Source of the DNA: Ostreococcus lucimarinus
Lineage: Eukaryota
Direction: 5' to 3' (one strand)
Assembly: GCA_000092065.1 (NCBI GenBank)
Contig: CP000594.1
DNA length: 64,000 nucleotides
Shown here: in pieces, positions 5,470 to 24,393 of the stretch
How the letters are laid out: the number at the start of each line of letters is the position of its first letter
How positions within the stretch are numbered: position 1 is the first letter of the stretch
Position numbers and translations under genes: made by a program
The notes under the pieces: model-generated
Database searches by the model: none
Told to the model about the DNA's origin: nothing
Seen by the model: the letters and a program-made list of their open reading frames with translations, nothing else

Positions 5470-6741
5470 CTACTCGTCGTCTGCGTCCTCGCGCGGTCGT
5501 GCAATAGTTTCCAGCGCCGACGCGGCGTCTGTGAGATTCTCTACGGGAAATCCCAATGCACTTTGAATGACGTTGCAGACGGCGCGCGTTCGCTCGACAA
5601 CGGAAGCTATTTCGTTCCTATCAGAACTCAGAATGTTATTTCGAAGCGTCGCCGCGAGCTCCTTCCACTCGGTTTCGACTTCGCTTCGTGACAAAGCGCC
5701 GGGAAACGCCCCGATAGCAAATATCTGAATCGCAAAATGACCGAGCGTGAGTTCCATCTCGTCCGTCGTCGCGTTTGGCGCACGTTTCGAGTGCCCACTC
5801 TTCAGAAGTGCGTTCGCGGAAGACTTGGACACAACGTCTACGGACAACTGGGCGCGCCGCACCTCTCGCAAGCAAGTCGCGAACGCTGTTTCATCGTCGC
5901 CAAAAAGTCGAACACACAACACTCGCGCGCGCGCGCACGATGATGGATCTAAAGCATCGCGATATTTCATCATCGCCGCGTCGAAGTCACTCCCCGCGAT
6001 CAACTCGCGCGCGACCTCGCGCGCGACGACGCGCGCGGCGGCGCACCACGACGTAATCGCTCGCTTGATTTCAGCTTCCACGCTTGCCTCGGCGTCCGCC
6101 ATCGTAGCTTCCAGCATGGTGCGCACCGCGTCAGCGCTCAAGCGTTCACCATCATGCTTGCGCCACACCTCGAGTTGTCGTCGCATCTCGCGCAAAGATG
6201 CGCACACCGTCTCGTGCTCGCCCGCTCGCTGCGCGTCTCTCAACGATTTCGCCGCTCGCGATAGCTCCAAACGAAACTTCGCCGCTTTGAACCCAACCTC
6301 GTACGCTCGCGCCCGCATAGTTTCCATCGTCGCTTCATTCGTGAATTGTTCCCTCATCCGCAAACCATTCTCGATCTCGCGCGCCATCGCTCGCGATTTC
6401 CGCCGCGCGTTCGCCAACGCCTCGCTCGCCGTCGCCGCGTCCCGTCGCGCTTCTCCGCTCGACCTCGGCGCCATCGCCCGCGCCTCGCGCGCCTCGCGAC
6501 GAATCATTCGCGATATTCGTTCGACATCGTTCCCATCGCGCCGCAGAATCTTCCGCAGCGCGTCCACGACCGCGTCGTCGTCGTCGTCGTCGTTTTCATT
6601 AAACTGCAACAGAAATCCATCCATCGCATCCATCGCCTCTCGTCGCGTCACCGACGTCGCGCGACCGCTCGCGCGTCTCGCATCGCGTCCATCGCGCTCG
6701 TCCTCGCTCGCGTCGGCGTCGCTGTCGTGAAAGTACCCCAT
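5470..6741 (-). CDS. hypothetical conserved-looking alpha-helical protein (423 aa)
   Basis: ATG at 6739-6741. Non-repetitive helical sequence with an acidic stretch (poly-D from (GTC)n at 6571-6594). No family recognised by eye. Confidence 0.4.
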   Translation of the reverse strand: MGYFHDSDADASEDERDGRDARRASGRATSVTRREAMDAMDGFLLQFNENDDDDDDAVVDALRKILRRDGNDVERISRMIRREAREARAMAPRSSGEARRDAATASEALANARRKSRAMAREIENGLRMREQFTNEATMETMRARAYEVGFKAAKFRLELSRAAKSLRDAQRAGEHETVCASLREMRRQLEVWRKHDGERLSADAVRTMLEATMADAEASVEAEIKRAITSWCAAARVVAREVARELIAGSDFDAAMMKYRDALDPSSCARARVLCVRLFGDDETAFATCLREVRRAQLSVDVVSKSSANALLKSGHSKRAPNATTDEMELTLGHFAIQIFAIGAFPGALSRSEVETEWKELAATLRNNILSSDRNEIASVVERTRAVCNVIQSALGFPVENLTDAASALETIARPREDADDE

Positions 6742-6984
6742 GACGGCGCCGTCGCGCTCGACGCGTCGCCGTCTGCGACCAACGACTCGGCACTGTCCGA
6801 CGCGTCGCCGTCGCGCGCACGACGCGTCATGGCGGATTCGAGCGCGCGCGCGTTCGCCAGCGTCACCAAGCGTCGTTTACTGGTGCGTCGTCGACCGCGC
6901 GTTCCCGCGCGCGCGAAGGCGCCGATGAACGCGCGACGCGCGACTGACTGCGACGTTTGGATGTTTGGCGCGCGTTAGGTGGAC

Positions 6985-9044
6985 ATGCTGACGACGAAAC
7001 TGCGCGATCGCGCGAGCGCGTGGCGGGTGTTGATCGTCGATGATACGTCGCTGCGGGTGGTGTCGTCGGCGTGCAAGATGAGCGATCTCGCGGAGGCGTG
7101 CGTGAGCGGTACGAGGAGGCGAGGCGACGAACGAGACCGACGCGAAGGCGAACCGAACGCGAACGCGAGGGAGGTGAGAGACGCGCGCGTGACTGACCGA
7201 TGGACGATGCGTCGTCGTCGTCGCTCGCAGTCGTGGAAAATTTGGACGTCGCGCGCGCGCCGCAACCGACGCTGGACGGGGTGTATTTCATCGCGCCGAG
7301 CGAACGCTCGGTGGCGCGCGTCGTGGAGGATTGCGAAAAGAAGCTGTATCGTAAGGCGCACGTGTTTTTTACCTCGGCCGCGCCGCGAGGGGTTTTGAAC
7401 GCGATCAAAGCGAGCAAGGCGTGCGTGTCCATGCTCGGGAACTGCAGTGAGATGAATCTGGAGTACTTTACGGTGGATCCGAAAGGTTTCAGCGTCGGCG
7501 TAGAGGACGCTTTGCGAGGGACGTTTGCGGTCGGATCGGAACAGTCGCAGGCGCAGGCGAGAATGATGGATATGATCGCGCAGCGGTTGGCGACGGTGAT
7601 GGTGTCGCTCGGGGAGATTCCGTCGATTAGGTACATGGCCAAGGTTGGGAATAAGAAGAGCGACGTATCGCGCGGCGTCGCCGACCGACTCGATCGTTCG
7701 CTCACCGCTCTTTTGCGCGCAAAAGGTGCGGAGGCGGCGAAGAACAATCCCACGTGCGACGTGTTGATCGTCGATCGCTCGTTCGACGTCATCACGCCCG
7801 TGGTTCACGAGTGGACGTACGAAAGCATGGTGACGGATTTGTTAAACGTGCCGAACGGCGTGTATCAGTACAAGATCACGACGAAGAAGGGCGAAGAATC
7901 AAAAGAAGCCGTGCTCGGGGAGAACGATCCGCTGTGGGTCGAGCTTCGCCACGCGCACATCGCCGAAGTTTTAACCGTATTAGCGGATAAAGCGAAAACG
8001 TTCGCGAACGTCGGTCCGGATGGGGGCGTTGTTGGTGGCCGTGATTTAACCACCGGTCAATTGAAGAAAGCCGTCGAGGCGTTGCCCAGAGTGTTGGAGC
8101 AACAAGCCAAACTTTCGGTGCACACGTCTATCGCTGGTGAGATCAACGCTGTTTTGCAAAAGTCCGCGTTGAGCGAGGTCGGGCGCTTGGAGCAAGACGT
8201 GGTGTTCGGCGACGCGACGAGCAAAGATCTCATCGCGTTGTTCAACGACCTCGACTCGCGCGGCGTGCGTTTGCCCATGGTGGAGAAACTTCGTCTATTG
8301 CTGTGCTACGTCAGTTCGCACCCGCAAAAGATTGACGAAAGTGAAAAGAAGCGATGGATGACGAACACTGGGCTGACGCTCGCGGACGTGAACATCTTGC
8401 AAAATCTAGAGTTATTGGGCGTGAAGGTTCTGAAAGACGGCGCATCGAATCCGTTTTCGAGCTCGATGTTTGGCTCGAGTACCAAGAGCATTCGACCGAA
8501 AGTGCTCGAACGCAAAGGCGCGGGGAGCGAGTGGGATTTATTTAGATTTTTACCCACGATGGCGGGCTTGGTGACCGAGCTTGATGCGGGAACTCTCGAC
8601 GCGACGGAGTATCCATCCGTCGGAATCTCTCCGGGAGCGGCGAACGCGCCGCCTACGATGATGTCGCCAACGAAATCGCGCTCGGTGCGCACGCGAACTG
8701 AAGCGTCGTGGGCGACACACAGTAGCGCGGGTAGCTTAGGCGGCGACGGCGACTCCGAGAGATCGGCATCGGGGACGAATCATCGACGAAGTGACTCCAT
8801 GACGTCGAATCGCGCGGCGAGCCAGCGTTCGAGTCGTCGCCTCATAGTCTTCGTCGTGGGCGGTATGACTCGTGGTGAGTTGCGCGAGGCACACGTCCTG
8901 AGTCAGAAATTACACCGTGAGGTCATCATCGGCTCCACCTCGCTCGAAACTCCCGCGTCGTTCGTAGAAAAACTCGCCGGCTTGGCGTCTGTCGCTTCGA
9001 TTCCAGAGAAATACGCCGACATCGCGGATTTGTCTGGACTGTAA
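6985..9044 (+). CDS. SEC1: Sec1/Munc18-family syntaxin-binding protein (SEC1/KEULE type)
   Basis: join(6985..7108,7231..9044). Exon 1 (…WRVLIVDDTSLRVVSSACKMSDLAEACVS) ends at donor G|GTACGAGG. A 122-nt intron runs to acceptor tcgctcgcag, and exon 2 continues VVENLDVARAPQPTLDGVYFIAPSE. Hallmarks DVLIVDRSFDVITPVVHEWTYESMVTDLL and LIVFVVGGMTRGE. The track ORF start 6979 is GTG; the first ATG is 6985. Confidence 0.8.
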
Positions 9045-9162
9045 TGGAAATAAACCTCGCGGAGTTCATGCGATACGTAAACGAGTGACGCTATACGAGA
9101 AGTACGATACATGAATGAGTGATACAGGAAGAAATACAGACTAAAATCGCGCGCAATCGCCG

Positions 9163-9612
9163 TCACATGACGGAGCAACACGTCGGTTGCGTCGCCGACG
9201 CGTCCTTGTTTGCCTCCGACGCCCGCTTCCGCGTCTCGCCCCGCGTCGACGCATTCTCGCTGACGATGAGATGCGCGATGCGTACCTCGCCACTCACGAA
9301 TCCGCACCACTTCAACGCCTTCGAGTCCGGCTCTAAAATTTTCCCGTCGAGCACCACGCGCAGGTACGCCGGCGACGCCGGCTTGGGCGACGTCGCCTCG
9401 TCCCCGTCCCCGATCGCCCCATCCGACGTCTCGCGCGCCAACCACGGCGCGTCCCACAGCGCGCGTTTCAAATCCGCCACCGTCGCGTTTTCATCCTCTA
9501 AAACCACCGGCCCTACGTCCGCGCCCTCGACGCGTCGCGCCTTGACGCGAAACGCCGCCGCCGCCGTCGTCTCACCTTCGTCCCCGCGCGCCCGCTCGCG
9601 CGCCGCGTCCAT
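9163..9612 (-). CDS. membrane-anchored ubiquitin-fold (MUB)-like protein with C-terminal CaaX prenylation box
   Basis: 149 aa, ATG at 9610-9612. Ubiquitin-like beta-grasp pattern (FRVKARRVEGADVGPVVLEDENATVADLKRALWD…LRVVLDGKILEPDSKALKW). The C-terminus …QPTCCSVM* is a CaaX motif (C-S-V-M), as found in MUB proteins. Confidence 0.45.
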   Translation of the reverse strand: MDAARERARGDEGETTAAAAFRVKARRVEGADVGPVVLEDENATVADLKRALWDAPWLARETSDGAIGDGDEATSPKPASPAYLRVVLDGKILEPDSKALKWCGFVSGEVRIAHLIVSENASTRGETRKRASEANKDASATQPTCCSVM

Positions 9613-9892
9613 GCCCGCGCTCGAATCGACCGACCGCGCGCCCCAACGCGCGCCGATCCGAGCTCGCGATCGCTCGTATCACCGCCGCGCCGGTCCGACG
9701 ACGCCGATCCGACGCAAAAATCCAAATCCAATCCGATCCGTTCGACGCCGCCGCCTCGCGTCCGCGCCGCCGCCTCGCGTTCGCGCGCGATCCGCGCGCG
9801 TCTCCCGACGCCGTCCTCGCGCGTCCGTCCCGTCCCGAGGCGTCCCGTCGCGCGTCGCGCGTCGCGCGATGCCGTTCGGTCGAATCGGCGCG

Positions 9893-9941
9893 CGTCGATC
9901 GGTCGATCGATCGATCGATCGATCGATCGATCGATCGATCG
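9893..9941. repeat. (GATC)n tetranucleotide microsatellite, ~11 units
   Basis: Direct read: cgatcgatcgatcgatcgatcgatcgatcgatcgatcg. It lies in the spacer between the divergent MUB-like and CCT-eta genes. Confidence 0.9.
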
Positions 9942-10362
9942 CCGCGCGCTCGAACCTCACCTCGAGGTTCGCGTCGCGTTCGTCGAAACCGACCCGCGCC
10001 GCGGACGGTTCGGTTCGAGTCAACGCGGCGCCGCGGCGCGATCGAGCGCGAAACCGCGACGCCGCGAACGCGCGAACGCGATGGCGGCGCCGATGGTGCG
10101 CATGCCCGATGGGCGATTAATAGTGCGTGTCGCGACGGCGACGGCGCGGACGACGCGACGCGCGACGCGCGAAGAGACGCGATCGGAACGCGCGCGCGCG
10201 ATGGCTCGCGACGGCGGATGAAGAGGATGATTTCGAGCGATGCGACGTCGCGCGAACGACGAGGGGGGGGGCGCGCGACGGAGGAGGGGTCGAAGAATTT
10301 GTGTGCTTCGAGCGCGGACGTCGCGCGGGACGTCGGCGCGACGCGGGAGACGCGAGGCGGCG

Positions 10363-12097
10363 ATGATGGTGATGATGAAGACTGAAGACTGAAGACTGAC
10401 GCTCGCGAACGAACGCGCGAACGCAGCAACCGCAAATCGTGCTGCTCAGGGAAGGCACGGACACGTCGCAAGGACGCGGACAGTGCGTGTCGAACATAAA
10501 CGCGTGCTGTGCGGTGGCGGATACGGTGCGAACGACGCTTGGACCGCGAGGATTAGATAAACTCGTGCGAGACGCGCGAGGAAACACGACGATTTCCAAC
10601 GACGGCGCGACGATTATGAAACTGTTGGAGATTGTGCATCCGGCGGCGAAAACGCTCGTGGACATCGCGAGAGCGCAGGATAGCGAAGTGGGGGACGGGA
10701 CGACGACGGTGGTGATACTGGCGGGGGAGCTGTTGAAGGAGGCGAAGACGTTCATCGAGGACGGCGTGCACCCGATGAATGTCATCAAGTCGTTTCGAGA
10801 GGCGTGCGATTTGGCGACGGCGCGCGTGCGCGAATTGGCGACGTCCATCGAAGGGAACAGCGCGGAGGAGAAGGATGAACTTTTGAAGAAATGCGCGATG
10901 ACGACGCTGAGCTCCAAACTTGTAGGAGGGGAGAAGGACTTCTTTGCCGACATGTGCGTCAAGGCGGTGCGCTCGCTCGATCAAGACTTGTTGGACCCGA
11001 AGATGATTGGCGTGAAAAAGGTCATGGGCGGAGGGATGACGGATTCGTTCTTGGTGGATGGCGTGGCGTTTAAGAAGACGTTCGCCTACGCCGGCTTCGA
11101 GCAAATGACGAAGAGCTTCAAAAAGCCGAAGATTTTGGCGCTCAACATGGAGCTCGAACTGAAGAGCGAAAAAGACAACGCCGAGGTGCGCCTGAGCGAT
11201 CCGACCAAGTATCAAGAAATCGTTGACGCTGAATGGAACATCATTTACGAGAAGCTCGACAAATGCGTGGCGTCGGGAGCGAACATCATTCTGAGTAGAC
11301 TCGCGATCGGGGACTTGGCGACGCAATATTTCGCCGACCGCGGATTGTTTTGCGCCGGTCGCGTAGACGCGCAGGATTTGGAACGCGTGACGCGCGCCAC
11401 CGGCGCGCCGGTGCAGACCACGGTGAACAACATCACGGACGCCCAGCTCGGATCGTGCGAGTTGTTCGAAGAGATTCAAGTCGGTAACGAACGGTACAAC
11501 ATTTTTAGAGGTTGTCCGCAGGCGAAGACATGCACGCTCATCTTGCGCGGCGGCGCCGAGCAATTCATCGAGGAGGCGGCGCGCTCGCTCAACGACGCCA
11601 TCGAAATTGTTCGCCGCGCGGTGAAGAACGCGGCGATCGTCCCTGGTGGCGGTGCGATCGATATGGAGTTGAGCAAGTACTTGCGCAACCACGCGCGCAC
11701 GGTGGCGGGCAAATCTCAGCTCTTCATCAACGCCTTTGCCAAAGCTTTAGAAATCATCCCGCGACAGCTCTGCGACAATTCCGGGCACGACGCGACCGAC
11801 GTGTTGAACAAGCTCAGACAAAAGCACGCGGGCGATGACGGGGCGAATTTCGGCGTCGATGTCAACGGAGGTGGCATCTGCGACACGCACGAACGCTTCA
11901 TCTGGGAACCGAGCCTGGTGAAAATCAACGCCCTGAACGCCGCCACCGAAGCGACGTGCTTGATTCTCTCCGTGGACGAAACCGTGAGAAACCCGCGAAG
12001 CGAAGGCGCGGATGAAGGCATGGGTGGCGGCGGTGGTCGGGGCATGCCGATGGGAGGTAGAGGAGGTGGTCGCGGCCGGGGTCGCGGCCGACGATAG
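10363..12097 (+). CDS. CCT7: T-complex protein 1 subunit eta (CCT7)
   Basis: join(10363..10368,10427..12097). A 6-nt first coding exon ATGATG with donor |GTGATG and a 58-nt intron (carrying (GAAGACT)3) to acceptor acgcag gives [18 protein letters not shown]. This aligns with metazoan CCT-eta MMPTPVILLKEGTD. Strong body matches ([23 protein letters not shown]) and a C-terminal GRGRGRGRR tail. The track ORF start at 10439 is a GTG. Confidence 0.85.
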
Positions 12098-12145: not shown

Positions 12146-14503
12146 CTAGTCGCCGTCGTCGCTACTGAGCTCGCCGCTAAGAATGGAATCGTCGACGTAC
12201 AGATCCGAGGTATCCAACGCGTTGATGTATCTCGCGAGCATCGCCGCGGACTCCTCAGCCTCTTCTAATTCTTCTAAACGCACTTTCGCGTCCTCGTCTT
12301 GAAGATGCGCGTATTTAGGCGCCCAGGGCGAACCGGGTTCGTCGTCAATGGGCGACCCTGGACTCGTCTCGCTCGCCGGTTCGGGCGTCGGCGCGGCAAC
12401 GGATGGCGACTGTGCGGACATCAGAGCGTCTCTCGACAATCGCGACGCTTCGTCCGGCAAGTGCTCGTCCACATGCACGTTTCTCGCGGCGAGAAGGACG
12501 TTGTGTATGAGCATCACCGCCACCGGTTCGAAAATGCCCGACGACGTCAGCGTCGGCGTGCGAACGCCCGTCGTCAAATCCATGATGTCCCTGGGCGTGA
12601 GCACGGCGAATTTCTTCGGCGCAAATTGAGCGGCGGCGTAAGATGCGAGTCCAATCGACGTCGCGGAGGCTAAAGATCCTAGCAACGAAGGTGCGCCTCG
12701 CGACAAGTGCGCGTCGGCGCTTTCGTCGAGTACGTCTTCGTCCGCGGCGCCGCAGCGGCGCGAAAACGGCGCGCCGTCGAGCAACATTCCGAACACTTCT
12801 TCCGCCGTCTCTTCGACATCTCCCGGACTCGATGGTCGCATCGTCGACGCCCATTCTGACGAAGCGAACGCGCACGTCACGGCGTGTCGGGAAACTTCGT
12901 CCGCGTGGCGCGGATACGCCTTGGCTAATCGCGACCGCAGCGTCGCCATGCGAGGATGTCGGCACACGCCGTCCAGAACAATCGTCGACGCCGGTGCGAG
13001 TCGGCCGCGTTGCGCGCGACCGACCAGACGCAGCGTCGCGACTTCAAATGCGCTCAACGACGGGTGCGATGCGACGCGAAGAGCAAACATCGCGTGACCG
13101 GTTGAACGAAATTTCGGAAGCGCGTCGAGCTCGCTCGGATCCGTCGCCGGACACTTTCCGGTGTCCGCGCCGAGGGTCAGCGCGGAGTACAATATATCGA
13201 TCCAATTCGCCCCGCGTCCGACGCCGGTGACTTTTTCGACGACGCGCGACACGCTCCCGCCTCTCGTCTGCAGTCCGCACATCGGATCCCTGAGCAACTT
13301 CCACGCCTCGGCGTGCGGATCCAAGTACGCCGAGCTTCGACACAGCGTCACTCCCAACCGCATGCCGAGTCGAACGCGCTCGCGCGGAGGAAGCGTGGCG
13401 AGGAGTAAGAACGGGCGTATCAAACCGGCGCGGTACGCCTTGTCTCGGTAATCGCTCTCGCGGTCGAGAACGTCAAATATGAACCCCGCGCGCTCGTCCG
13501 CGGCTTCGCGTTTCGCCAGCCGCAAATCCCACCCGCGCGCGATCTCCTCCGCCGACGCCGTCGCCGTCGCCGCGTCGTCCCCGCGGCTCAGCGCGCGCTT
13601 AAACGCCTTCGCCAACGCCCCGATCGTGGGCACGGACACGTGTCCACCGATGTTTATTCTGCGCGTCGTCGTCTCCGCCGCGGCGCACCTCGCGCACGAT
13701 CCCCCACCCGGCCGCGAGCGCTTGCGCATCACCTCCGCGTCCTCGCCGCACCGCTCGCACGCCGCCGTCCCCCCCCCACACACCATGCACTCGTACGCGT
13801 CGCTCCCGCGCGTCCCACGCCTGACGTGCGAACTCTTTTCCCCGCACCACGAGCACCACGCGACGCGTCTCGTCGCCGCCGCGAACGCCTCGCTCGTCGT
13901 CCACGTCTCCACCCATCCCGCGCACTTCGCGCACCTCCCGTCCCCGATCTTCGCGAATCCCTCCGCGCATCGTTCGCACTTGTGCGTCGCCCTCGCGCAC
14001 CGCGCGCAGTGACTCAGATACGTCCCTCTTCTCCCCGTCGCTCGCGTCACTCGATGTCGCGTCTCTTTGCCGCACCACGAGCACCGCCCGCTCGGCGACA
14101 TCCTTCGCGCGACGCTCTCCACCCCGTCCCCGCCCTCCGCGTCCGACCACTTGAATCCATCATTATTTTTCGTCACCGCGCACGCGCACGCCAGGCACGC
14201 GTCGTCGTCCCATCCGTCGCCGCTTCTCGCCATCGCTCGACACGTCGCGAACCGCGCGCACGCCCGCGTCCGTCCCGCGCACGCCCCGCACGCGCGCGGC
14301 GCTCGCGCGGCGCTCGACCGCGTCACCGCCGCGTGCGACGTCTCGTGGAAGCACCACGAGCACCGCGCGATGAGCGCGCGCGTCGCGGCGGGCGTCGGCG
14401 CGTCGCGCGACGTCGAGGCGCCGGACGCGCTCGGCGTCGCGCTTCGCGTCGAGCGCGCGCGCGAGCTCGGCGCGCGGTCGAGCGCGTCGCGCGCGTCGCG
14501 CAT
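12146..14503 (-). CDS. hypothetical protein with three N-terminal CSWC(G)…H…CxxC…CxxC cysteine-rich modules and a C-terminal alpha-helical domain
   Basis: 785 aa, ATG at 14501-14503. Three repeated modules: RCSWCFHETSHAAV…CGAC…CARF, RCSWCGKETRHRVTR…CARCARATHKCERC…CAKCAGW and WCSWCGEKSSHVRRG…CMVCGGGTAACERC. No family recognised. Confidence 0.5.
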   Translation of the reverse strand: MRDARDALDRAPSSRARSTRSATPSASGASTSRDAPTPAATRALIARCSWCFHETSHAAVTRSSAARAPRACGACAGRTRACARFATCRAMARSGDGWDDDACLACACAVTKNNDGFKWSDAEGGDGVESVARRMSPSGRCSWCGKETRHRVTRATGRRGTYLSHCARCARATHKCERCAEGFAKIGDGRCAKCAGWVETWTTSEAFAAATRRVAWCSWCGEKSSHVRRGTRGSDAYECMVCGGGTAACERCGEDAEVMRKRSRPGGGSCARCAAAETTTRRINIGGHVSVPTIGALAKAFKRALSRGDDAATATASAEEIARGWDLRLAKREAADERAGFIFDVLDRESDYRDKAYRAGLIRPFLLLATLPPRERVRLGMRLGVTLCRSSAYLDPHAEAWKLLRDPMCGLQTRGGSVSRVVEKVTGVGRGANWIDILYSALTLGADTGKCPATDPSELDALPKFRSTGHAMFALRVASHPSLSAFEVATLRLVGRAQRGRLAPASTIVLDGVCRHPRMATLRSRLAKAYPRHADEVSRHAVTCAFASSEWASTMRPSSPGDVEETAEEVFGMLLDGAPFSRRCGAADEDVLDESADAHLSRGAPSLLGSLASATSIGLASYAAAQFAPKKFAVLTPRDIMDLTTGVRTPTLTSSGIFEPVAVMLIHNVLLAARNVHVDEHLPDEASRLSRDALMSAQSPSVAAPTPEPASETSPGSPIDDEPGSPWAPKYAHLQDEDAKVRLEELEEAEESAAMLARYINALDTSDLYVDDSILSGELSSDDGD

Positions 14504-17639: not shown

Positions 17640-20600
17640 TCAGGCTGGCGTCGGTACGGCCGAAATCCAGCGCGCGTTGGCGAGCTCTGCGAGGTGGTTG
17701 TGAAACGACGTGTCCGCGTAGAGCGGGAAAGAAGGCGACGTCAAGCTCGTGTACTTGAGATCGCCGTCGACGTAGAACTCAATCGCGCCCGCGTCGTTCA
17801 CGATCACTTGGAAAGTCTCACCCGCGACGAAGACGCCGGCATCGAACTTGTTCACGCCCTTCTCTTGGAATCGGACCTGATTGCCGTTGCAGAACACGGC
17901 GTAGTCGATGGTCGTTTGGCTGTGGCCCGAGGGCGTGCTCGACAAGCCAAACTGCAAGTGCCTGTTGTCGGTGCGCATGCAGTCGCCGGAAATGCCGCGA
18001 ATCTCGTCGCCGACTTTCGTGATGGCGCGCGCGCTGTACGCGCCTCTTGCCCAGTTGTTCCCGCCTTGAGTACGTTTGAGGTAGCCCTGTTTGCCGTCCG
18101 TCGTCATGCCCTGCGAAAGTCCGACCCACTCGATGAGATCCAAGTCGTTCGCACCCTCGTGGACAGTCTGTATCCAGGAGACTCGAGAGAAAGACGCGCC
18201 TGCAGTGTTGAAGCGCGCGGTGGCGTAGAGCGGGAAGGCAGGCGCCTCATCAGACGTCGCAAACGCCGCGCCATCCTTGTAGTACGTGACGACGCCCGAG
18301 TCGAGCACGACCACTTGGAACGTCTCACCGACGAAGTAATCGCCAAAGTCGCCGTCGCGCACGACGCCGTGTTCGGAGATGCGGATCACGCCGTTGTCGC
18401 ACACAATGCCGAAGTCGACCACCTCGTCGACGGAGTTCGTCGAGCCAGAGTTCAAGCCAATCATCATGGACTTGTCCGTTTGGTCGCAATCCGCGGAGAC
18501 GCCACGCACTTCGTCGCCGATCTTCGTGATGGCACGTTTGCTCGTGGCGCCGACGTTCCAGCCACTGCCTGCCATTGTGCGCGTCACTTGGCCCGCGGAA
18601 GACTCGACGCCTTCCGCGTCTTCAAACTCCATGGCCGCCAAGTCGTTCGCGCCCTTGACAACCTTGTGAACCCAGCGCGCGTTGGCCAGCTCTGCGAGGT
18701 GGTTGTGAAACGACGTGTCCGCGTAGAGCGGGAAAGAAGGCGACGTCAAGCTCGTGTACTTGAGATCGCCGTCGACGTAGAACTCAATCGCGCCCGCGTC
18801 GTTCACGATCACTTGGAAAGTCTCACCCGCGACGAAGACGCCGGCATCGAACTTGTTCACGCCCTTCTCTTGGAATCGGACCTGATTGCCGTTGCAGAAC
18901 ACGGCGTAGTCGATGGTCGTTTGGCTGTGGCCCGAGGGCGTGCTCGACAAGCCAAACTGCAAGTGCCTGTTGTCGGTGCGCATGCAGTCGCCGGAAATGC
19001 CGCGAATCTCGTCGCCGACTTTCGTGATGGCGCGCGCGCTGTACGCGCCTCTTGCCCAGTTGTTCCCGCCTTGAGTACGTTTGAGGTAGCCCTGTTTGCC
19101 GTCCGTCGTCATGCCCTGCGAAAGTCCGACCCACTCGATGAGATCCAAGTCGTTCGCACCCTCGTGGACAGTCTGTATCCAGGAGACTCGAGAGAAAGAC
19201 GCGCCTGCAGTGTTGAAGCGCGCGGTGGCGTAGAGCGGGAAGGCAGGCGCCTCATCAGACGTCGCAAACGCCGCGCCATCCTTGTAGTACGTGACGACGC
19301 CCGAGTCGAGCACGACCACTTGGAACGTCTCACCGACGAAGTAATCGCCAAAGTCGCCGTCGCGCACGACGCCGTGTTCGGAGATGCGGATCACGCCGTT
19401 GTCGCACACAATGCCGAAGTCGACCACCTCGTCGACGGAGTTCGTCGAGCCAGAGTTCAAGCCAATCATCATGGACTTGTCCGTTTGGTCGCAATCCGCG
19501 GAGACGCCACGCACTTCGTCGCCGATCTTCGTGATGGCACGTTTGCTCGTGGCGCCGACGTTCCAGCCACTGCCTGCCATTGTGCGCGTCACTTGGCCCG
19601 CGGAAGACTCGACGCCTTCCGCGTCTTCAAACTCCATGGCCGCCAAGTCGTTCGCGCCCTTGACAACCTTGTGAACCCAGCGCGCGTTGGCCAGCTCTGC
19701 GAGGTGGTTGTGAAACGACGTGTCCGCGTAGAGCGGGAAAGAAGGCGACGTCAAGCTCGTGTACTTGAGATCGCCGTCGACGTAGAACTCAATCGCGCCC
19801 GCGTCGTTCACGATCACTTGGAAAGTCTCACCCGCGACGAAGACGCCGGCATCGAACTTGTTCACGCCCTTCTCTTGGAATCGGACCTGATTGCCGTTGC
19901 AGAACACGGCGTAGTCGATGGTCGTTTGGCTGTGGCCCGAGGGCGTGCTCGACAAGCCAAACTGCAAGTGCCTGTTGTCGGTGCGCATGCAGTCGCCGGA
20001 AATGCCGCGAACCTCGTCGCCGACTTTCGTGATGGCGCGCGCGCTGTACGCACCTCTTGCCCAGTTGTTCCCGCCTTGAGTACGTTTGAGGTAGCCCTGT
20101 TTGCCGTCCGTCGTCATGCCCTGCGAAAGTCCGACCCACTCGATGAGATCGAGATCCCGTGAACCTTTATGAACAACTTTTATCCACTTCACATTTTCGA
20201 GGTGTCCTCCACCTTCATCAACGTATCCATCGGCAAACAATGGGAAGATCGGTTCTCTGCTACTATTGTAGACAGAATGTCCTTCTTTATAATAGTGAAC
20301 GATACCCTCGTCATTAAATGCGACCTGGAACGTTTCTCCCGCGAGGTATGTTCCGATCGTGGCCATAAGCTCACCGTCTTCGTAAACTTCCATTGTTCCG
20401 GCATTGCAACCAACGGCATACTCAATAGCATCGCCATCCGAGGGTGTGTAATGAGCGCTGCTCAAACCGAATATCATTTTCGTTGTTGTGTCACTGCAAT
20501 CCGCAGAAATACCGCGAACTTCGTCATAAATTTTAGTTACGGCGCGTTTACTTGTCGAGCGCACAATGTCCATTTTTTCAGGTGTAACCGGCAAGTACAC

Positions 20601-23600
20601 GTCGCCGTGTGACACTTCACATCGCTGGACTGTTTCAAAGTCCATCATGTTTAGCCAATGCATGTGGCTTAGCTTCGCACCTTCGGTGAAGATTCGAGCC
20701 TGGGAGTAAAGAGGGAATTCAACACTTTTAGTGCTGACATGAAGAACATTACCATTTTGCAGATACTCGATGACACCATGCTCGTTGATGACGATAGAAA
20801 ATGTCTCTCCAGGGCTGTACGCCGAAGGAGGCTCGACAATGCGCTCGTGCCTTTGGAAGGCTGACGCATTGTGTTGGTCATTTATGTATTCGGGTGAATC
20901 ACTATCCAATGAATCAAGTGCCAAGTCTGGCGAAGTACCAAGATGTGTTGAAGGCGGTGGACCTTGAGCATCGTTCTCCGGGGTCGGGACTTGAAGTTGG
21001 CCTTCAATCCCATGTGGTGTATTCGGCTCGGGACGTCGATGTGGCTCGATTGTTTTGATGACAACTCCATCTTCAAGGAGACGCAACGTTCCGGCATCAC
21101 AGTATATCGCAAAGGACAGGTTCGTCTGCGCCGGAGCAGTAGCGGTTTCATTCGCAGCGGTTTCATTCAACTGAGCATCTTGATCACCTTGCACCATGAG
21201 TCCAAACATCATCTGTGACTTGTTGTCGGAACAATCGGCAGACACGCCTTTTTTGGTGTCATTCCAACCGCGAATTGATGAACGACTCGTTGCGAAAGCA
21301 AGTAATGAAGCTTCTTCGATGCGTTTTGCCGCCTCTTCACTCAACACGTGAGCGAGAGATCCAGGTGTAAGAGTCGCATTCTCAGGTAGAAGGAACTCAA
21401 CAGGCTCAAGGTCATCGGCACCTTCAATGATTCGGTAAACCCAGCGCGCGTTGGCCAGCTCTGCGAGGTGGTTGTGAAACGACGTGTCGGCGTAGAGCGG
21501 GAAAGAAGGCGACGTCAAGCTCGTGTACTTGAGATCGCCGTCGACGTAGAACTCAATCGCGCCCGCGTCGTTCACGATCACTTGGAAAGTCTCACCCGCG
21601 ACGAAGACGCCGGCATCGAACTTGTTCACGCCCTTCTCTTGGAATCGGACCTGATTGCCGTTGCAGAACACGGCGTAGTCGATGGTCGTTTGGCTGTGGC
21701 CCGAGGGCGTGCTCGACAAGCCAAACTGCAAGTGCCTGTTGTCGGTGCGCATGCAGTCGCCGGAAATGCCGCGAATCTCGTCGCCGACTTTCGTGATGGC
21801 GCGCGCGCTGTACGCGCCTCTTGCCCAGTTGTTCCCGCCTTGAGTACGTTTGAGGTAGCCCTGTTTGCCGTCCGTCGTCATGCCCTGCGAAAGTCCGACC
21901 CACTCGATGAGATCCAAGTCGTTCGCACCCTCGTGGACAGTCTGTATCCAGGAGACTCGAGAGAAAGACGCGCCTGCAGTGTTGAAGCGCGCGGTGGCGT
22001 AGAGCGGGAAGGCAGGCGCCTCATCAGACGTCGCAAACGCCGCGCCATCCTTGTAGTACGTGACGACGCCCGAGTCGAGCACGACCACTTGGAACGTCTC
22101 ACCGACGAAGTAATCGCCAAAGTCGCCGTCGCGCACGACGCCGTGTTCGGAGATGCGGATCACGCCGTTGTCGCACACAATGCCGAAGTCGACCACCTCG
22201 TCGACGGAGTTCGTCGAGCCAGAGTTCAAGCCAATCATCATGGACTTGTCCGTTTGGTCGCAATCCGCGGAGACGCCACGCACTTCGTCGCCGATCTTCG
22301 TGATGGCACGTTTGCTCGTGGCGCCGACGTTCCAGCCACTGCCTGCCATTGTGCGCGTCACTTGGCCCGCGGAAGACTCGACGCCTTCCGCGTCTTCAAA
22401 CTCCATGGCCGCCAAGTCGTTCGCGCCCTTGACAACCTTGTGAACCCAGCGCGCGTTGGCCAGCTCTGCGAGGTGGTTGTGAAACGACGTGTCCGCGTAG
22501 AGCGGGAAAGAAGGCGACGTCAAGCTCGTGTACTTGAGATCGCCGTCGACGTAGAACTCAATCGCGCCCGCGTCGTTCACGATCACTTGGAAAGTCTCAC
22601 CCGCGACGAAGACGCCGGCATCGAACTTGTTCACGCCCTTCTCTTGGAATCGGACCTGATTGCCGTTGCAGAACACGGCGTAGTCGATGGTCGTTTGGCT
22701 GTGGCCCGAGGGCGTGCTCGACAAGCCAAACTGCAAGTGCCTGTTGTCGGTGCGCATGCAGTCGCCGGAAATGCCGCGAATCTCGTCGCCGACTTTCGTG
22801 ATGGCGCGCGCGCTGTACGCGCCTCTTGCCCAGTTGTTCCCGCCTTGAGTACGTTTGAGGTAGCCCTGTTTGCCGTCCGTCGTCATGCCCTGCGAAAGTC
22901 CGACCCACTCGATGAGATCCAAGTCGTTCGCACCCTCGTGGACAGTCTGTATCCAGGAGACTCGAGAGAAAGACGCGCCTGCAGTGTTGAAGCGCGCGGT
23001 GGCGTAGAGCGGGAAGGCAGGCGCCTCATCAGACGTCGCAAACGCCGCGCCATCCTTGTAGTACGTGACGACGCCCGAGTCGAGCACGACCACTTGGAAC
23101 GTCTCACCGACGAAGTAATCGCCAAAGTCGCCGTCGCGCACGACGCCGTGTTCGGAGATGCGGATCACGCCGTTGTCGCACACAATGCCGAAGTCGACCA
23201 CCTCGTCGACGGAGTTCGTCGAGCCAGAGTTCAAGCCAATCATCATGGACTTGTCCGTTTGGTCGCAATCCGCGGAGACGCCACGCACTTCGTCGCCGAT
23301 CTTCGTGATGGCACGTTTGCTCGTGGCGCCGACGTTCCAGCCACTGCCTGCCATTGTGCGCGTCACTTGGCCCGCGGAAGACTCGACGCCTTCCGCGTCT
23401 TCAAACTCCATGGCCGCCAAGTCGTTCGCGCCCTTGACAACCTTGTGAACCCAGCGCGCGTTGGCGAGCTCTGCGAGGTGGTTGTGAAACGACGTGTCCG
23501 CGTAGAGCGGGAAAGAAGGCGACGTCAAGCTCGTGTACTTGAGATCGCCGTCGACGTAGAACTCAATCGCGCCCGCGTCGTTCACGATCACTTGGAAAGT

Positions 23601-24137
23601 CTCACCTGCGACGAAGACGCCGGCATCGAACTTGTTCACGCCCTTCTCTTGGAATCGGACCTGATTGCCGTTGCAGAACACGGCGTAGTCGATGGTCGTT
23701 TGGCTGTGGCCCAAGGGCGTGCTCGACAAGCCAAACTGCAAGTGCCTGTTGTCGGTGCGCATGCAGTCGCCGGAAATGCCGCGAATCTCGTCGCCAACTT
23801 TCGTGATGGCGCGCGCGCTGTACGCGCCTCTTGCCCAGTTGTTCCCGCCTTGAGTACGTTTGAGGTAGCCCTGTTTGCCGTCCGTCGTCATGCCCTGCGA
23901 AAGTCCGACCCACTCGATGAGATCCAAGTCGTTCGCGCTTTCCACGGTCCCTTGTCTCGCCACCGTGCGCACGATCGTCGGTCTCTCTCCTAACCCGACG
24001 CCCAGCGCGCTCAGCGCCAGCCCCGCGCACGCCGCCCGCGCGCCCCATCGCCAGATTCCACCGGAAACCTCCTCGCGACGCCTCTCCGACCGCAACAACG
24101 GCGTCGCCTCATCCCTCGACGTCCACCTCGCCGCCAT
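17640..24137 (-). CDS. giant membrane-anchored tandem-repeat protein (~2165 aa): ~12 SPRY/ConA-like beta-sandwich domains
   Basis: Continuous ORF; the first ATG is 24135-24137 (the track start 24200 is TTG). An N-terminal cytoplasmic tail precedes the signal-anchor IWRWGARAACAGLALSALGVGLG. Six near-identical 335-aa units follow, each an A+B subdomain pair. The A subdomain reads …WARGAYSARAITKVGDEIRGISGDC…IDYAVFCNGNQVRFQEKG…GETFQVIVNDAGAIEFYVDGDL…SFPLYADTSF. The B subdomain reads …WNVGATSKRAITKIGDEVRGVSADC…VDFGIVCDNGVIRISEHG…GETFQVVVLDSGVVTYYKDGAAF…AFPLYATARF. A divergent central segment carries two degenerate copies and a P/acidic linker. Confidence 0.6.
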   Translation of the reverse strand: MAARWTSRDEATPLLRSERRREEVSGGIWRWGARAACAGLALSALGVGLGERPTIVRTVARQGTVESANDLDLIEWVGLSQGMTTDGKQGYLKRTQGGNNWARGAYSARAITKVGDEIRGISGDCMRTDNRHLQFGLSSTPLGHSQTTIDYAVFCNGNQVRFQEKGVNKFDAGVFVAGETFQVIVNDAGAIEFYVDGDLKYTSLTSPSFPLYADTSFHNHLAELANARWVHKVVKGANDLAAMEFEDAEGVESSAGQVTRTMAGSGWNVGATSKRAITKIGDEVRGVSADCDQTDKSMMIGLNSGSTNSVDEVVDFGIVCDNGVIRISEHGVVRDGDFGDYFVGETFQVVVLDSGVVTYYKDGAAFATSDEAPAFPLYATARFNTAGASFSRVSWIQTVHEGANDLDLIEWVGLSQGMTTDGKQGYLKRTQGGNNWARGAYSARAITKVGDEIRGISGDCMRTDNRHLQFGLSSTPSGHSQTTIDYAVFCNGNQVRFQEKGVNKFDAGVFVAGETFQVIVNDAGAIEFYVDGDLKYTSLTSPSFPLYADTSFHNHLAELANARWVHKVVKGANDLAAMEFEDAEGVESSAGQVTRTMAGSGWNVGATSKRAITKIGDEVRGVSADCDQTDKSMMIGLNSGSTNSVDEVVDFGIVCDNGVIRISEHGVVRDGDFGDYFVGETFQVVVLDSGVVTYYKDGAAFATSDEAPAFPLYATARFNTAGASFSRVSWIQTVHEGANDLDLIEWVGLSQGMTTDGKQGYLKRTQGGNNWARGAYSARAITKVGDEIRGISGDCMRTDNRHLQFGLSSTPSGHSQTTIDYAVFCNGNQVRFQEKGVNKFDAGVFVAGETFQVIVNDAGAIEFYVDGDLKYTSLTSPSFPLYADTSFHNHLAELANARWVYRIIEGADDLEPVEFLLPENATLTPGSLAHVLSEEAAKRIEEASLLAFATSRSSIRGWNDTKKGVSADCSDNKSQMMFGLMVQGDQDAQLNETAANETATAPAQTNLSFAIYCDAGTLRLLEDGVVIKTIEPHRRPEPNTPHGIEGQLQVPTPENDAQGPPPSTHLGTSPDLALDSLDSDSPEYINDQHNASAFQRHERIVEPPSAYSPGETFSIVINEHGVIEYLQNGNVLHVSTKSVEFPLYSQARIFTEGAKLSHMHWLNMMDFETVQRCEVSHGDVYLPVTPEKMDIVRSTSKRAVTKIYDEVRGISADCSDTTTKMIFGLSSAHYTPSDGDAIEYAVGCNAGTMEVYEDGELMATIGTYLAGETFQVAFNDEGIVHYYKEGHSVYNSSREPIFPLFADGYVDEGGGHLENVKWIKVVHKGSRDLDLIEWVGLSQGMTTDGKQGYLKRTQGGNNWARGAYSARAITKVGDEVRGISGDCMRTDNRHLQFGLSSTPSGHSQTTIDYAVFCNGNQVRFQEKGVNKFDAGVFVAGETFQVIVNDAGAIEFYVDGDLKYTSLTSPSFPLYADTSFHNHLAELANARWVHKVVKGANDLAAMEFEDAEGVESSAGQVTRTMAGSGWNVGATSKRAITKIGDEVRGVSADCDQTDKSMMIGLNSGSTNSVDEVVDFGIVCDNGVIRISEHGVVRDGDFGDYFVGETFQVVVLDSGVVTYYKDGAAFATSDEAPAFPLYATARFNTAGASFSRVSWIQTVHEGANDLDLIEWVGLSQGMTTDGKQGYLKRTQGGNNWARGAYSARAITKVGDEIRGISGDCMRTDNRHLQFGLSSTPSGHSQTTIDYAVFCNGNQVRFQEKGVNKFDAGVFVAGETFQVIVNDAGAIEFYVDGDLKYTSLTSPSFPLYADTSFHNHLAELANARWVHKVVKGANDLAAMEFEDAEGVESSAGQVTRTMAGSGWNVGATSKRAITKIGDEVRGVSADCDQTDKSMMIGLNSGSTNSVDEVVDFGIVCDNGVIRISEHGVVRDGDFGDYFVGETFQVVVLDSGVVTYYKDGAAFATSDEAPAFPLYATARFNTAGASFSRVSWIQTVHEGANDLDLIEWVGLSQGMTTDGKQGYLKRTQGGNNWARGAYSARAITKVGDEIRGISGDCMRTDNRHLQFGLSSTPSGHSQTTIDYAVFCNGNQVRFQEKGVNKFDAGVFVAGETFQVIVNDAGAIEFYVDGDLKYTSLTSPSFPLYADTSFHNHLAELANARWISAVPTPA
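17659..20157. repeat. tandem array, 1005-bp period (~2.5 units), near-identical copies (coding, C-terminal half of giant protein)
   Basis: The motif cccagcgcgcgttggccagctctgcgaggtggttgtgaaacg recurs at 17659/18671/19676. The antisense track ORFs 17818/18823/19828 are identical apart from single substitutions. Confidence 0.9.
21440..23936. repeat. second tandem array of the same 1005-bp unit (~2.5 units) (coding, N-terminal half of giant protein)
   Basis: Same motif at 21443/22445/23450. The antisense track ORFs 21592/22597/23602 are identical to those in array 1. Confidence 0.9.
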
Positions 24138-24393
24138 CGTCGCGCCCGTCTCCCTCACGCGCGCGCGAAATCGATTCAACACCTCCTCACGGCACCGCAA
24201 ACGTCACGAGTCGACGCGCGTCGCCTCGTTCTTTCGCGCGCGCTCGCACCGCGTGGGTCCCGAGACCGGTCGCGCGAGTTATTTCTCCGCCCCGCTCACT
24301 CGCTCGTTCGACGCGCGCCTCGCCGTCGCGGCCGCGCGTCGCTGAATGCCGCGCGCGCCCGGTCCGCGCTGATTGTGCTGACTCGTCAAAGGT

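What the first reader, a model, noticed from the sequence alone, without database searches (positions are those of the whole stretch)
9163..9612. Ubiquitin-fold protein ending in a CaaX box (CCSVM): MUB-like lipid-anchored ubiquitin-fold protein
A 149-aa ORF with a ubiquitin-like beta-grasp pattern terminates in …TCCSVM*. The C-aliphatic-aliphatic-X motif and its upstream extra Cys match membrane-anchored ubiquitin-fold (MUB) proteins, which are prenylated and often palmitoylated. MUBs are best known from land plants, where they tether E2 enzymes to the plasma membrane.
Basis: partly seen in the sequence, partly recalled or inferred. Interest (0 to 1): 0.5.

Follow-up and report, generated by a model that had tools for sequence, protein, structure and literature searches.

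The report
Algal MUB/UBL3 lipid-anchored ubiquitin-fold protein
This is a real single-exon gene of the tiny green alga Ostreococcus lucimarinus for a ubiquitin-shaped protein that is probably tethered to a membrane by a farnesyl lipid; it belongs to the known MUB/UBL3 family and public databases already label it UBL3-like, so it is ordinary.

Summary
Window 9163..9612 (minus strand) holds a 149-aa ORF ending TCCSVM*. It matches Pfam PF13881, the MUB/UBL3 family, over the whole profile (E 1e-21). A profile of its clade aligns with plant and animal MUB/UBL3 proteins from the first strand to the CaaX box (hhalign 96.8%, E 2e-10). Two AlphaFold models give a ubiquitin beta-grasp core. Their PDB matches include mouse UBL3 and Arabidopsis MUB3 and MUB1.

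The CC-aaX ending is kept in every full-length ortholog retrieved, including O. tauri. CSVM is the same box as in Arabidopsis MUB1, which a review lists as farnesylated.

The exact protein is XP_001421373.1 / UniRef A4S711 of Ostreococcus lucimarinus, already named "UBL3-like ubiquitin domain-containing protein". [quoted passage not shown] Novelty is therefore low.

The Ostreococcus-type clade does diverge from studied MUBs:
- It lacks the invariant Pro (and the Phe) of the lap-bar loop that blocks E1 in plant and human MUBs.
- It carries a 20-31-residue disordered insert after helix 1.
- Its cysteines are arranged CC-aaX as in animals, not CxC-aaX as in plants.

Membrane anchoring is well supported by inference. 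E2 tethering is plausible. E1-blocking inhibition is doubtful.

The parts
9163..9612 (-). Complete single-exon coding sequence (149 codons plus TGA stop) of the O. lucimarinus MUB/UBL3 homolog, XP_001421373.1
   Evidence: ORF list. Exact-sequence look-up. Pfam PF13881 at E 1.1e-21.
9553..9612 (-). N-terminal extension, residues 1-20, predicted disordered. It is variable in length and sequence among orthologs and absent from plant and animal MUBs.
   Evidence: pLDDT below 50 for residues 1-16. Alignments A1 and A5.
9259..9552 (-). Ubiquitin-fold (beta-grasp) core, residues 21-118. It contains the plant-MUB-like R-x-x-E-G-A-D-V-G-P motif (R26..P35) and the Ile44-type surface (V87, G90, I92, I112, H114, I116).
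9385..9441 (-). Clade-specific disordered acidic/Gly-rich insert, residues 58-76, between W57 and K77-P78. The W-to-P stretch is 20-31 residues in the algal clade, 9-10 in plant and animal MUB/UBL3, and ubiquitin has only 5 residues in those columns.
   Evidence: Alignment A5 and the loop-length count. pLDDT below 50 for residues 62-73.
9286..9303 (-). Alpha2-beta5 loop, residues 104-109 (GFVSGE), the position of the MUB lap-bar loop. Its length is animal-like, and the invariant Pro and the Phe of the (K/R)xPFG motif are absent.
   Evidence: column read-out. Motif definition from PMC4996978.
9181..9258 (-). Flexible C-terminal tether, residues 119-144, between the fold and the lipidation site
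   Evidence: pLDDT below 50 for residues 123-143. AtMUB3 has an unstructured C-terminal tail of 19 residues.
9178..9180 (-). Cys145, the extra cysteine directly before the CaaX box. It is invariant in the clade and is a candidate S-acylation site or UBL3-type reactive Cys.
   Evidence: Listed among the invariant columns in A1. The role of C113 in human UBL3 comes from PMC10511055.
9166..9177 (-). CaaX box C146-S-V-M149, the predicted farnesylation site. It is identical to the CaaX of Arabidopsis MUB1.
   Evidence: Sequence. The 1se9 chain ends CVCSVM. AtMUB1 is listed as farnesylated in PMC12197051. PFT prefers X = Q, M, S according to PMC3017772.

Best explanation
The ORF is the single-exon gene for the Ostreococcus lucimarinus member of the MUB/UBL3 family, the membrane-anchored ubiquitin-fold proteins (Pfam PF13881).

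Shown here:
- It is a conserved coding gene.
- It is homologous to plant MUBs and animal UBL3.
- It is predicted to fold as a ubiquitin beta-grasp, followed by a disordered tail of about 27 residues.
- It ends in a CC-aaX motif that every full-length ortholog retrieved keeps.

Inferred from established CaaX biochemistry and from the identical CSVM box of farnesylated AtMUB1:
- Cys146 is farnesylated by protein farnesyltransferase.
- The SVM tripeptide is then removed and the new C-terminus is methylated.
- Cys145 probably adds a second membrane signal by S-acylation.
- The ubiquitin fold would therefore hang on a flexible leash at the cytosolic face of a membrane.

Inferred more weakly: the fold uses its conserved Ile44-type face (R26, G30, V87, G90, I92, I112, H114, I116) to dock on the backside of a UBC4/5/UBE2D-type E2. 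This would concentrate ubiquitylation capacity at that membrane.

Probably not conserved: the lap-bar-loop mechanism by which plant and human MUBs block E1 charging of the bound E2. The Pro-Phe core of that loop is missing in the whole Ostreococcus-type clade.
For: - Family profile: PF13881 at E 1.1e-21 over the full profile, with no other family above its cut-off. Human UBL3 and AtMUB1 hit the same model at 121 and 145 bits.
- Profile-profile comparison: hhalign of the clade against canonical MUB/UBL3 gives 96.8% probability, E 2.2e-10, over 111 columns ending in the aligned CaaX.
- CaaX conservation: the orthologs end CCSVM, CCAVM, CCSIM, CCSIQ or CCRIS, and both Cys are invariant. The O. 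tauri ortholog XP_003083166.2 sits in a cluster whose representative ends TCCSVM.
- Lipid type: X is M, Q or S throughout, which are PFT-type residues. AtMUB1 has the identical CSVM and is listed as farnesylated.
- E2 surface: of the ten AtMUB3 residues that contact the E2 backside, five are identical and three are conservative here (contact list).
- Synteny: the convergent Sec1-family neighbour is kept in the 63%-identical ortholog.
Against: - No experiment shows prenylation, membrane location or E2 binding for this or any Mamiellophyceae protein.
- I did not verify that farnesyltransferase, the CaaX protease, the methyltransferase or a group VI-type E2 exist in this genome.
- The lap-bar-loop Pro is invariant in the plant and animal MUBs aligned here. 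In all eight algal sequences examined it is replaced by V, A or R, and the Phe position is not kept either.
- The conserved surface residues are the generic ubiquitin Ile44 patch. Ubiquitin itself has G, I, G, H and V at five of the ten positions, so they do not single out an E2 as partner.
- Sequence-only PDB searches hit MUB1 and MUB3 at E 0.01-0.03, no better than the RAD23 and SNRNP25 ubiquitin-like domains.
- The orthologs score only 34-49 bits on PF13881, and one (P0011) scores nothing.
- The protein evolves fast. It is 44% identical to the representative of the O. tauri cluster, and dN/dS is 0.42 in the core and above 1 in the disordered parts.
Confidence: 0.8

Rival explanations
1. It is a true MUB/UBL3 homolog but works in the mode proposed for animal UBL3. 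The two adjacent cysteines (C145 and C146) would mediate covalent, cysteine-dependent attachment to other proteins and sort them into vesicles. Alternatively, the prenylated protein acts as a cofactor for a membrane-bound RING-CH (MARCH-type) ligase. In either case it is not a simple E2 tether or inhibitor.
For: - The cysteines are arranged CC-aaX as in animals, not CxC-aaX as reported for plants and other green algae.
- In human UBL3, modification of substrates depends on C113 and C114 (PMC10511055).
- UBL3 function with MARCH1 requires prenylation at C114 (PMC9001657).
- The lap-bar Pro-Phe needed for E1 blocking is absent.
Against: - Cysteine-dependent modification by UBL3 has been shown only in mammalian cells. 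The same review says it is unknown even for Arabidopsis.
- Outside the CC motif, the fold's N-terminal motif R..EGADVGP resembles plant MUBs (R..DGSDIGP) and not animal UBL3.
- No MARCH-type ligase or vesicle-sorting data exist for this alga.
Confidence: 0.12
2. It is a generic ubiquitin-like domain protein, for example related to the RAD23, DSK2 or SNRNP25 ubiquitin-like domains. Its C-terminal CSVM would be incidental and not lipid-modified.
For: - Profile searches of PDB sequences give similar weak E-values for RAD23 (0.004), SNRNP25 (0.017) and MUB1/MUB3 (0.012-0.026).
- The alpha2-beta5 loop resembles an ordinary ubiquitin-like 'G-L-x-D-G' loop.
Against: - Pfam reports only PF13881 above its cut-off, and no ubiquitin-family (PF00240) hit at all up to E = 1.
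- hhalign to MUB/UBL3 covers the whole domain plus the tail and CaaX at E 2e-10.
- Both cysteines and a farnesyl-type X residue are kept across orthologs that share only 30-45% identity and have otherwise unalignable tails.
- The protein has no further domains such as UBA, and no Gly-Gly end.
Confidence: 0.04
3. It is lipid-anchored by geranylgeranyl rather than farnesyl, or by S-acylation alone as in AtMUB2.
For: - Family members use all three lipids: AtMUB3/5/6 are geranylgeranylated and AtMUB2 is palmitoylated.
- Human UBL3 ends in CVIL.
Against: - The X residue is M, Q or S in every ortholog and never L.
- Arabidopsis PGGT1 uses CVIM and CVIQ at only about 7% of its CVIL efficiency, whereas PFT prefers Q and M.
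- AtMUB1, with the identical CSVM, is listed as farnesylated.
Confidence: 0.04

Closest known systems
Arabidopsis MUB1 (At3g01050, PDB 1se9), a farnesylated membrane-anchored ubiquitin-fold protein
   Same: - Same Pfam family, PF13881.
- Shared N-terminal motif: R-x-x-(D/E)-G-(S/A)-D-(I/V)-G-P.
- Conserved W after helix 1, G-K in strand 3 and H in strand 5.
- Identical CaaX box, CSVM.
- A disordered tail leads to the lipidation site.
   Different: - Plant MUBs have CxC-aaX (CVCSVM); this protein has CC-aaX.
- The plant alpha2-beta5 loop spans 19 residues on the L-to-H measure, with an invariant Pro. Here it spans 15 and has no Pro.
- The plant W-P motif is W-L here.
- This protein has a 20-residue N-terminal extension and an insert after helix 1 of about 12-13 extra residues in O. 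lucimarinus.
Arabidopsis MUB3 in complex with the E2 UBC8 (PDB 4x57; Lu et al. 2016, PMC4996978)
   Same: - Foldseek E 1.7e-4, 22-23% identity.
- Eight of the ten E2-backside contact residues are identical or conservative.
- A flexible C-terminal tether is present.
   Different: - MUB3 has the lap-bar loop K-T-P-F-G-D-I, which blocks E1. The Pro-Phe is the part most responsible for inhibition and is absent here.
- MUB3 ends in CTIL and is geranylgeranylated; this protein ends in CSVM.
- Contact residues S60 and Q92 are D89 and S118 here.
Animal UBL3 (human and mouse; PDB 1wgh)
   Same: - Top Foldseek hit.
- Same family model.
- Same CC-aaX cysteine arrangement, and the same alpha2-beta5 loop length of 15 residues on the L-to-H measure.
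   Different: - UBL3 has the L-P-(F/L/V)-G lap-bar motif, ends in CVIL (geranylgeranyl type) and has S-G-K-T-K instead of E-G-A-D-V-G-P.
- It has no insert after helix 1.
- Identity is only 19-21%.
Putative UBL3 orthologs of unicellular green algae (Chlamydomonas, Chlorella, Monoraphidium) listed in the review PMC10511055
   Same: [quoted passage not shown] Their function is untested.
   Different: The review reports CxC-aaX for Chlamydomonas and Monoraphidium, whereas the Ostreococcus-type clade has CC-aaX. I did not retrieve those sequences, so their loop motifs were not compared.

Membership tests
MUB/UBL3 family (Pfam PF13881, InterPro 'UBL3-like ubiquitin domain') | Significant match to the family profile, above the curated threshold and covering the domain | tested here: met
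   77.5 bits against a cut-off of 23, E 1.1e-21, profile positions 2-111 of 111. Human UBL3 and AtMUB1 hit the same model at 121 and 145 bits. Orthologs score lower (34-49 bits) and P0011 has no hit.
MUB/UBL3 family (Pfam PF13881, InterPro 'UBL3-like ubiquitin domain') | Homology to experimentally studied plant MUBs and animal UBL3, shown by profile-profile comparison | tested here: met
   hhalign of A1 (algal clade) against A4 (named MUB and UBL3 proteins) gives probability 96.8%, E 2.2e-10, over 111 aligned columns including the CaaX.
MUB/UBL3 family (Pfam PF13881, InterPro 'UBL3-like ubiquitin domain') | Ubiquitin beta-grasp fold | tested here: met
MUB/UBL3 family (Pfam PF13881, InterPro 'UBL3-like ubiquitin domain') | C-terminal CaaX prenylation box, conserved in orthologs | tested here: met
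   CSVM at residues 146-149. Orthologs carry CSVM, CAVM, CSIM, CSIQ or CRIS, and the Cys is invariant.
MUB/UBL3 family (Pfam PF13881, InterPro 'UBL3-like ubiquitin domain') | Additional cysteine just upstream of the CaaX box | tested here: met
   Cys145 is invariant in the clade. The arrangement is CC-aaX as in animals and some fungi, not the CxC-aaX reported for plants and chlorophytes.
MUB/UBL3 family (Pfam PF13881, InterPro 'UBL3-like ubiquitin domain') | No C-terminal Gly-Gly for conjugation; instead an unstructured tail links the fold to the lipidation site | tested here: met
   There is no GG after strand 5 in alignment A5, whereas ubiquitin ends in RGG. Residues 123-143 have pLDDT below 50. 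AtMUB3 has a 19-residue unstructured tail.
MUB/UBL3 family (Pfam PF13881, InterPro 'UBL3-like ubiquitin domain') | Actual prenylation and membrane localisation | not testable with these tools
   This needs in vitro prenylation, or localisation of wild-type against C146S protein. The indirect support is that AtMUB1 has the identical CSVM and is listed as farnesylated.
MUB as E2 regulator (Lu et al. 2016: backside binding plus lap-bar loop) | [quoted passage not shown] | tested here: not met
   The loop is GFVSGE. The column of the invariant Pro holds V, A or R in all eight algal sequences, and there is no Phe at the following position. Loop length on the L-to-H measure is 15-18 residues, against 13 in ubiquitin, 15 in animals and 19 in plants (motif). 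This lowers the claim that it inhibits E1 charging like AtMUB3 or HsMUB. It does not lower homology-based family membership.
MUB as E2 regulator (Lu et al. 2016: backside binding plus lap-bar loop) | Conserved residues that contact the E2 backside (AtMUB3 R12, G16, I58, S60, G61, I63, V86, H88, V90, Q92) | tested here: inconclusive
   The equivalents here are R26, G30, V87, D89, G90, I92, I112, H114, I116 and S118: five identical, three conservative, two different. Five of these positions are also identical in ubiquitin itself, so the pattern is compatible with E2 binding but not specific for it.
MUB as E2 regulator (Lu et al. 2016: backside binding plus lap-bar loop) | Physical binding to a group VI / UBE2D-type E2 | not testable with these tools
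   No E2 of this organism was retrieved, and no complex prediction tool was available.

The most novel reading that the evidence does not exclude
The Ostreococcus-type (Mamiellophyceae) MUBs may be a distinct, fast-evolving sub-lineage of the family that keeps the lipid anchor and the Ile44-type face. It has lost the Pro-Phe lap-bar that lets plant and human MUBs block E1. It has gained a 20-31-residue disordered insert after helix 1, and it uses the animal-type CC-aaX. If so, these proteins would tether a partner to the membrane without inhibiting its charging, or would serve a different partner altogether. That would make them a natural separation-of-function variant of MUB in one of the smallest free-living eukaryotes.
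Probability: 0.3. Interest if true: 0.35.

Novelty: already known. Interest (0 to 1): 0.15.

Why it matters
It matters little as a discovery. The family has been known since 2006 in plants, animals and fungi, and green-algal orthologs have been pointed out in a review. This exact protein already carries the UBL3-like domain name in UniRef.

Its modest value is comparative. It shows that a minimal eukaryote with a very compact genome retains a lipid-anchored ubiquitin-fold protein. The lipid-anchor motif is the most conserved part of the tail, while the E1-blocking loop motif of studied MUBs is not conserved. This hints that membrane anchoring, and not E2 inhibition, is the ancestral constrained function.

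Tried and rejected
- Single-sequence phmmer against PDB sequences found nothing relevant.
- NCBIfam gave no hit, as expected for a prokaryote-oriented library.
- phmmer against 1.8 billion cluster representatives found only 11 proteins, all from the same algal clade or chance repeats. No plant MUB appeared, which shows how divergent the clade is.
- Profile searches of PDB sequences gave only weak and non-discriminating hits: RAD23, SNRNP25, MUB1 and MUB3 at E 0.004-0.03. I considered RAD23-like and SNRNP25-like identities and rejected them on the Pfam and hhalign results, the conserved CaaX, and the lack of other domains.
- Whole-gene dN/dS against the 63% ortholog is 0.87 and therefore uninformative. 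Synonymous change is depressed by a GC3 of 0.84 and the disordered parts are unconstrained. Only the core (0.42) and the last seven codons (0.25) look constrained.
- The overlapping ORFs (333 aa on +, 299 aa and 184 aa on -) have no Pfam hits and are treated as GC-driven chance ORFs.
- A literature search for Ostreococcus together with MUB or UBL3 found nothing relevant.
- The 70%-identical 'homolog' P0002 is not a homolog. It comes from an assembly of bisulfite-converted reads of the same locus, so it was excluded from the conservation arguments.
- P0004 shares only the C-terminal 69 residues behind an unrelated N-terminus. I treated it as a mis-called or frameshifted metagenomic variant.

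Full report
**Observation**

The window carries an ATG-to-TGA ORF of 149 codons at 9163..9612 on the minus strand. It ends ...ATQPTCCSVM*.

ORF length is not evidence in this roughly 62% GC DNA. The same stretch carries longer overlapping ORFs (333 aa on +, 299 aa and 184 aa on -), and none of them matches any Pfam family. Several results mark this frame as the coding one:
- A full-length Pfam match to PF13881 (E 1.1e-21, 77.5 bits, profile 2-111 of 111).
- A GC3 of 0.84 in this frame.
- Orthologs that keep the fold residues and the C-terminal motif.

**Source organism and existing annotation**

An exact-sequence look-up identifies the protein as ABO99666.1 / XP_001421373.1, 'predicted protein [Ostreococcus lucimarinus CCE9901]'. 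It is also UniRef100_A4S711, named 'UBL3-like ubiquitin domain-containing protein'. The RefSeq model equals the ORF, so the gene is single-exon.

The neighbours fit a compact green-algal chromosome:
- A Sec1 / syntaxin-binding protein gene at 7200..9044 (+), convergent, with 118 bp between the two stop codons.
- A TCP-1/cpn60 (CCT-type) chaperonin gene to the right.
- Further along, a pheophorbide a oxygenase, a glucosidase II beta subunit and an RNB-domain (Dis3-like) exoribonuclease.

The pairing with Sec1 is kept in a 63%-identical ortholog from a metagenome.

**Family assignment**

PF13881 is the MUB/UBL3 family model. Human UBL3 and Arabidopsis MUB1 score 121 and 145 bits on it.

Single-sequence searches show that the protein is divergent. 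phmmer over 1.8 billion representatives finds only relatives from the same algal clade. Sequence searches of the PDB are weak and do not discriminate.

I built a profile of eight clade members (A1) and a profile of fifteen named plant MUBs and animal UBL3s retrieved (A4). hhalign gives 96.8% probability, E 2.2e-10, over 111 columns. The alignment runs from strand 1 through the tail into the aligned CaaX.

**Fold**

Two AlphaFold2 runs, with 10 and 26 aligned sequences, agree:
- Strands at 21-27, 32-38, 84-88 and 110-117, and a helix at 45-54.
- Core pLDDT of 75-85.
- Disordered residues 1-16, 62-73 and 123-149.

Foldseek against the PDB ranks mouse UBL3 (1wgh) first, AtMUB3 (4x57) third and fourth, and AtMUB1 (1se9) ninth. 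These carry the highest identities in the list, 22-24%.

**CaaX box**

All full-length orthologs end in CC-a-a-X: CCSVM, CCAVM, CCSIM, CCSIQ or CCRIS. Both cysteines are invariant, although the preceding tails cannot be aligned. One of these orthologs (P0006, ending TCCSVM) represents the cluster that contains O. tauri XP_003083166.2. It is only 44% identical to the O. lucimarinus protein.

The X residue is always M, Q or S. Recombinant Arabidopsis farnesyltransferase prefers Q, M and S at X and is tolerant at a1. Geranylgeranyltransferase-I uses CVIM and CVIQ at about 7% of its CVIL efficiency (PMC3017772).

The PDB chain of AtMUB1 ends CVCSVM, so its CaaX box is identical to the one here. 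AtMUB1 is listed as farnesylated (PMC12197051). Farnesylation of Cys146, followed by -SVM removal and carboxymethylation, is therefore the expected fate. This is inferred, not shown.

Cys145 is a candidate for S-acylation, by analogy with dually lipidated CaaX proteins (my own knowledge). It is also a candidate for the cysteine-dependent modifier activity reported for human UBL3 C113 (PMC10511055).

**How it differs from studied MUBs**

Lu et al. 2016 (PMC4996978) define two interaction elements in AtMUB3. One is a backside-binding surface: R12, G16, I58, S60, G61, I63, V86, H88, V90 and Q92. [quoted passage not shown] The Pro-Phe of that loop is the part most responsible for blocking E1-dependent charging of the E2.

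I mapped these elements through alignment A5:
- The backside residues here are R26, G30, V87, D89, G90, I92, I112, H114, I116 and S118. Five are identical, three conservative and two different. Five of the ten are also identical in ubiquitin, so this is the generic Ile44-type face.
- The lap-bar loop here is GFVSGE. The Pro column holds V, A or R in all eight algal sequences, and the Phe is not kept.
- Loop length on the L-to-H measure is 15-18 residues, against 13 in ubiquitin, 15 in animals and 19 in plants.

The clade has three further peculiarities:
- A 20-31-residue disordered acidic/Gly/Thr-rich stretch between W57 and K77-P78, against 9-10 residues in canonical MUBs.
- An N-terminal extension.
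- W-L in place of the canonical W-P.

Its cysteine arrangement is CC-aaX, as in animals. Its N-terminal motif R..EGADVGP is of the plant type (R..DGSDIGP).

**Mechanism**

The best-supported reading is a farnesyl-anchored ubiquitin fold, perhaps additionally S-acylated, on a flexible leash of about 27 residues at the cytosolic face of a membrane.

Docking on the backside of a UBC4/5/UBE2D-type E2 is plausible by homology. Plant and human MUBs tether such E2s to the plasma membrane. This step is unproven here.

Inhibition of E1 charging through the lap-bar mechanism is doubtful, because the motif is absent.

The rivals are an animal-UBL3-style cysteine-dependent modifier or MARCH-type ligase cofactor role, a generic ubiquitin-like protein with an incidental CaaX, and a different lipid. 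They are weighed in the rival section. The second is largely excluded.

**Comparison with what is known, and novelty**

MUBs were described in 2006 as a family in plants, animals and fungi (as summarised). A 2022 review explicitly lists putative UBL3 orthologs with a CaaX in unicellular green algae: Chlamydomonas, Chlorella and Monoraphidium. This exact protein already carries the UBL3-like domain name.

I found no paper that discusses the Ostreococcus protein itself. The finding is a correct recognition of an ordinary, already-catalogued family member. The only mildly new points are the clade's loss of the lap-bar Pro-Phe, the insert, and the CC-aaX arrangement.

**Verdict**

Novelty is low (already known as a family member) and interest is 0.15.

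Noticed in passing
L003 (Logan assembly of run SRR847306), aligned to window 6501..9917: The 70%-identical 'homolog' P0002 is an artefact of bisulfite-converted reads of this same locus. The alignment shows 952 C-to-T differences on the minus strand and no other mismatch, and all 120 unconverted C lie in CpG. These presumably methylated CpGs form 14 clusters spaced 172-200 bp apart, three of them inside the MUB gene (9172-9202, 9346-9392, 9517-9566). This matches the nucleosome-linker CG methylation reported for marine algae by Huff and Zilberman 2014, as cited in PMC5728721.
   Followed up: yes
window 10081..10441: The CCT-type chaperonin ORF starts only at a GTG at 10439 and has no in-frame ATG nearby. 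The sequence suggests a 15-nt first exon, ATGGCGGCGCCGATG (MAAPM), at 10081-10095. A GT..AG intron of 331 nt would follow at 10096-10426, with exon 2 starting at 10427 ([12 protein letters not shown]...). This is inferred from reading the sequence and was not tested against transcripts.
   Followed up: partly
window 9746..9941: The 468-bp divergent region between the MUB start codon (9612, -) and the putative chaperonin start codon (10081, +) contains a (TCGA) microsatellite of 11.8 copies at 9895-9941. It also contains two GC-rich 19-nt tandem repeats at 9746-9786 and 9811-9863.
   Followed up: no
window 17640..24200 (-): A 2186-aa ORF gives only odd Pfam whole-protein hits with no single significant stretch (Laminin_G_3, HasA, Enolase_N). 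This suggests a large repetitive or low-complexity protein.
   Followed up: no
window 28751..33529 (-), 12146..14503 (-), 5470..6741 (-): Three long ORFs of 1592, 785 and 423 aa have no Pfam family at E 1e-5 or better. I did not check whether they are real genes or GC-driven ORFs.
   Followed up: no
P0004 (metagenomic protein, 121 aa): This protein shares the C-terminal 69 residues (LRVVLDGKIL...TCCSVM) exactly with the window protein, but its N-terminus is unrelated and Arg-rich. It is probably a frameshifted or mis-called gene on a metagenomic contig of a close strain.
   Followed up: no
window 9163..9612 compared with orthologs P0003 and P0006: The protein evolves unusually fast for a ubiquitin-fold protein. 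It is 63% identical to the closest other lineage and 44% identical to the representative of the O. tauri cluster. NG86 dN/dS is 0.42 in the fold core and above 1 in the disordered segments, with dS depressed by a GC3 of 0.84.
   Followed up: partly
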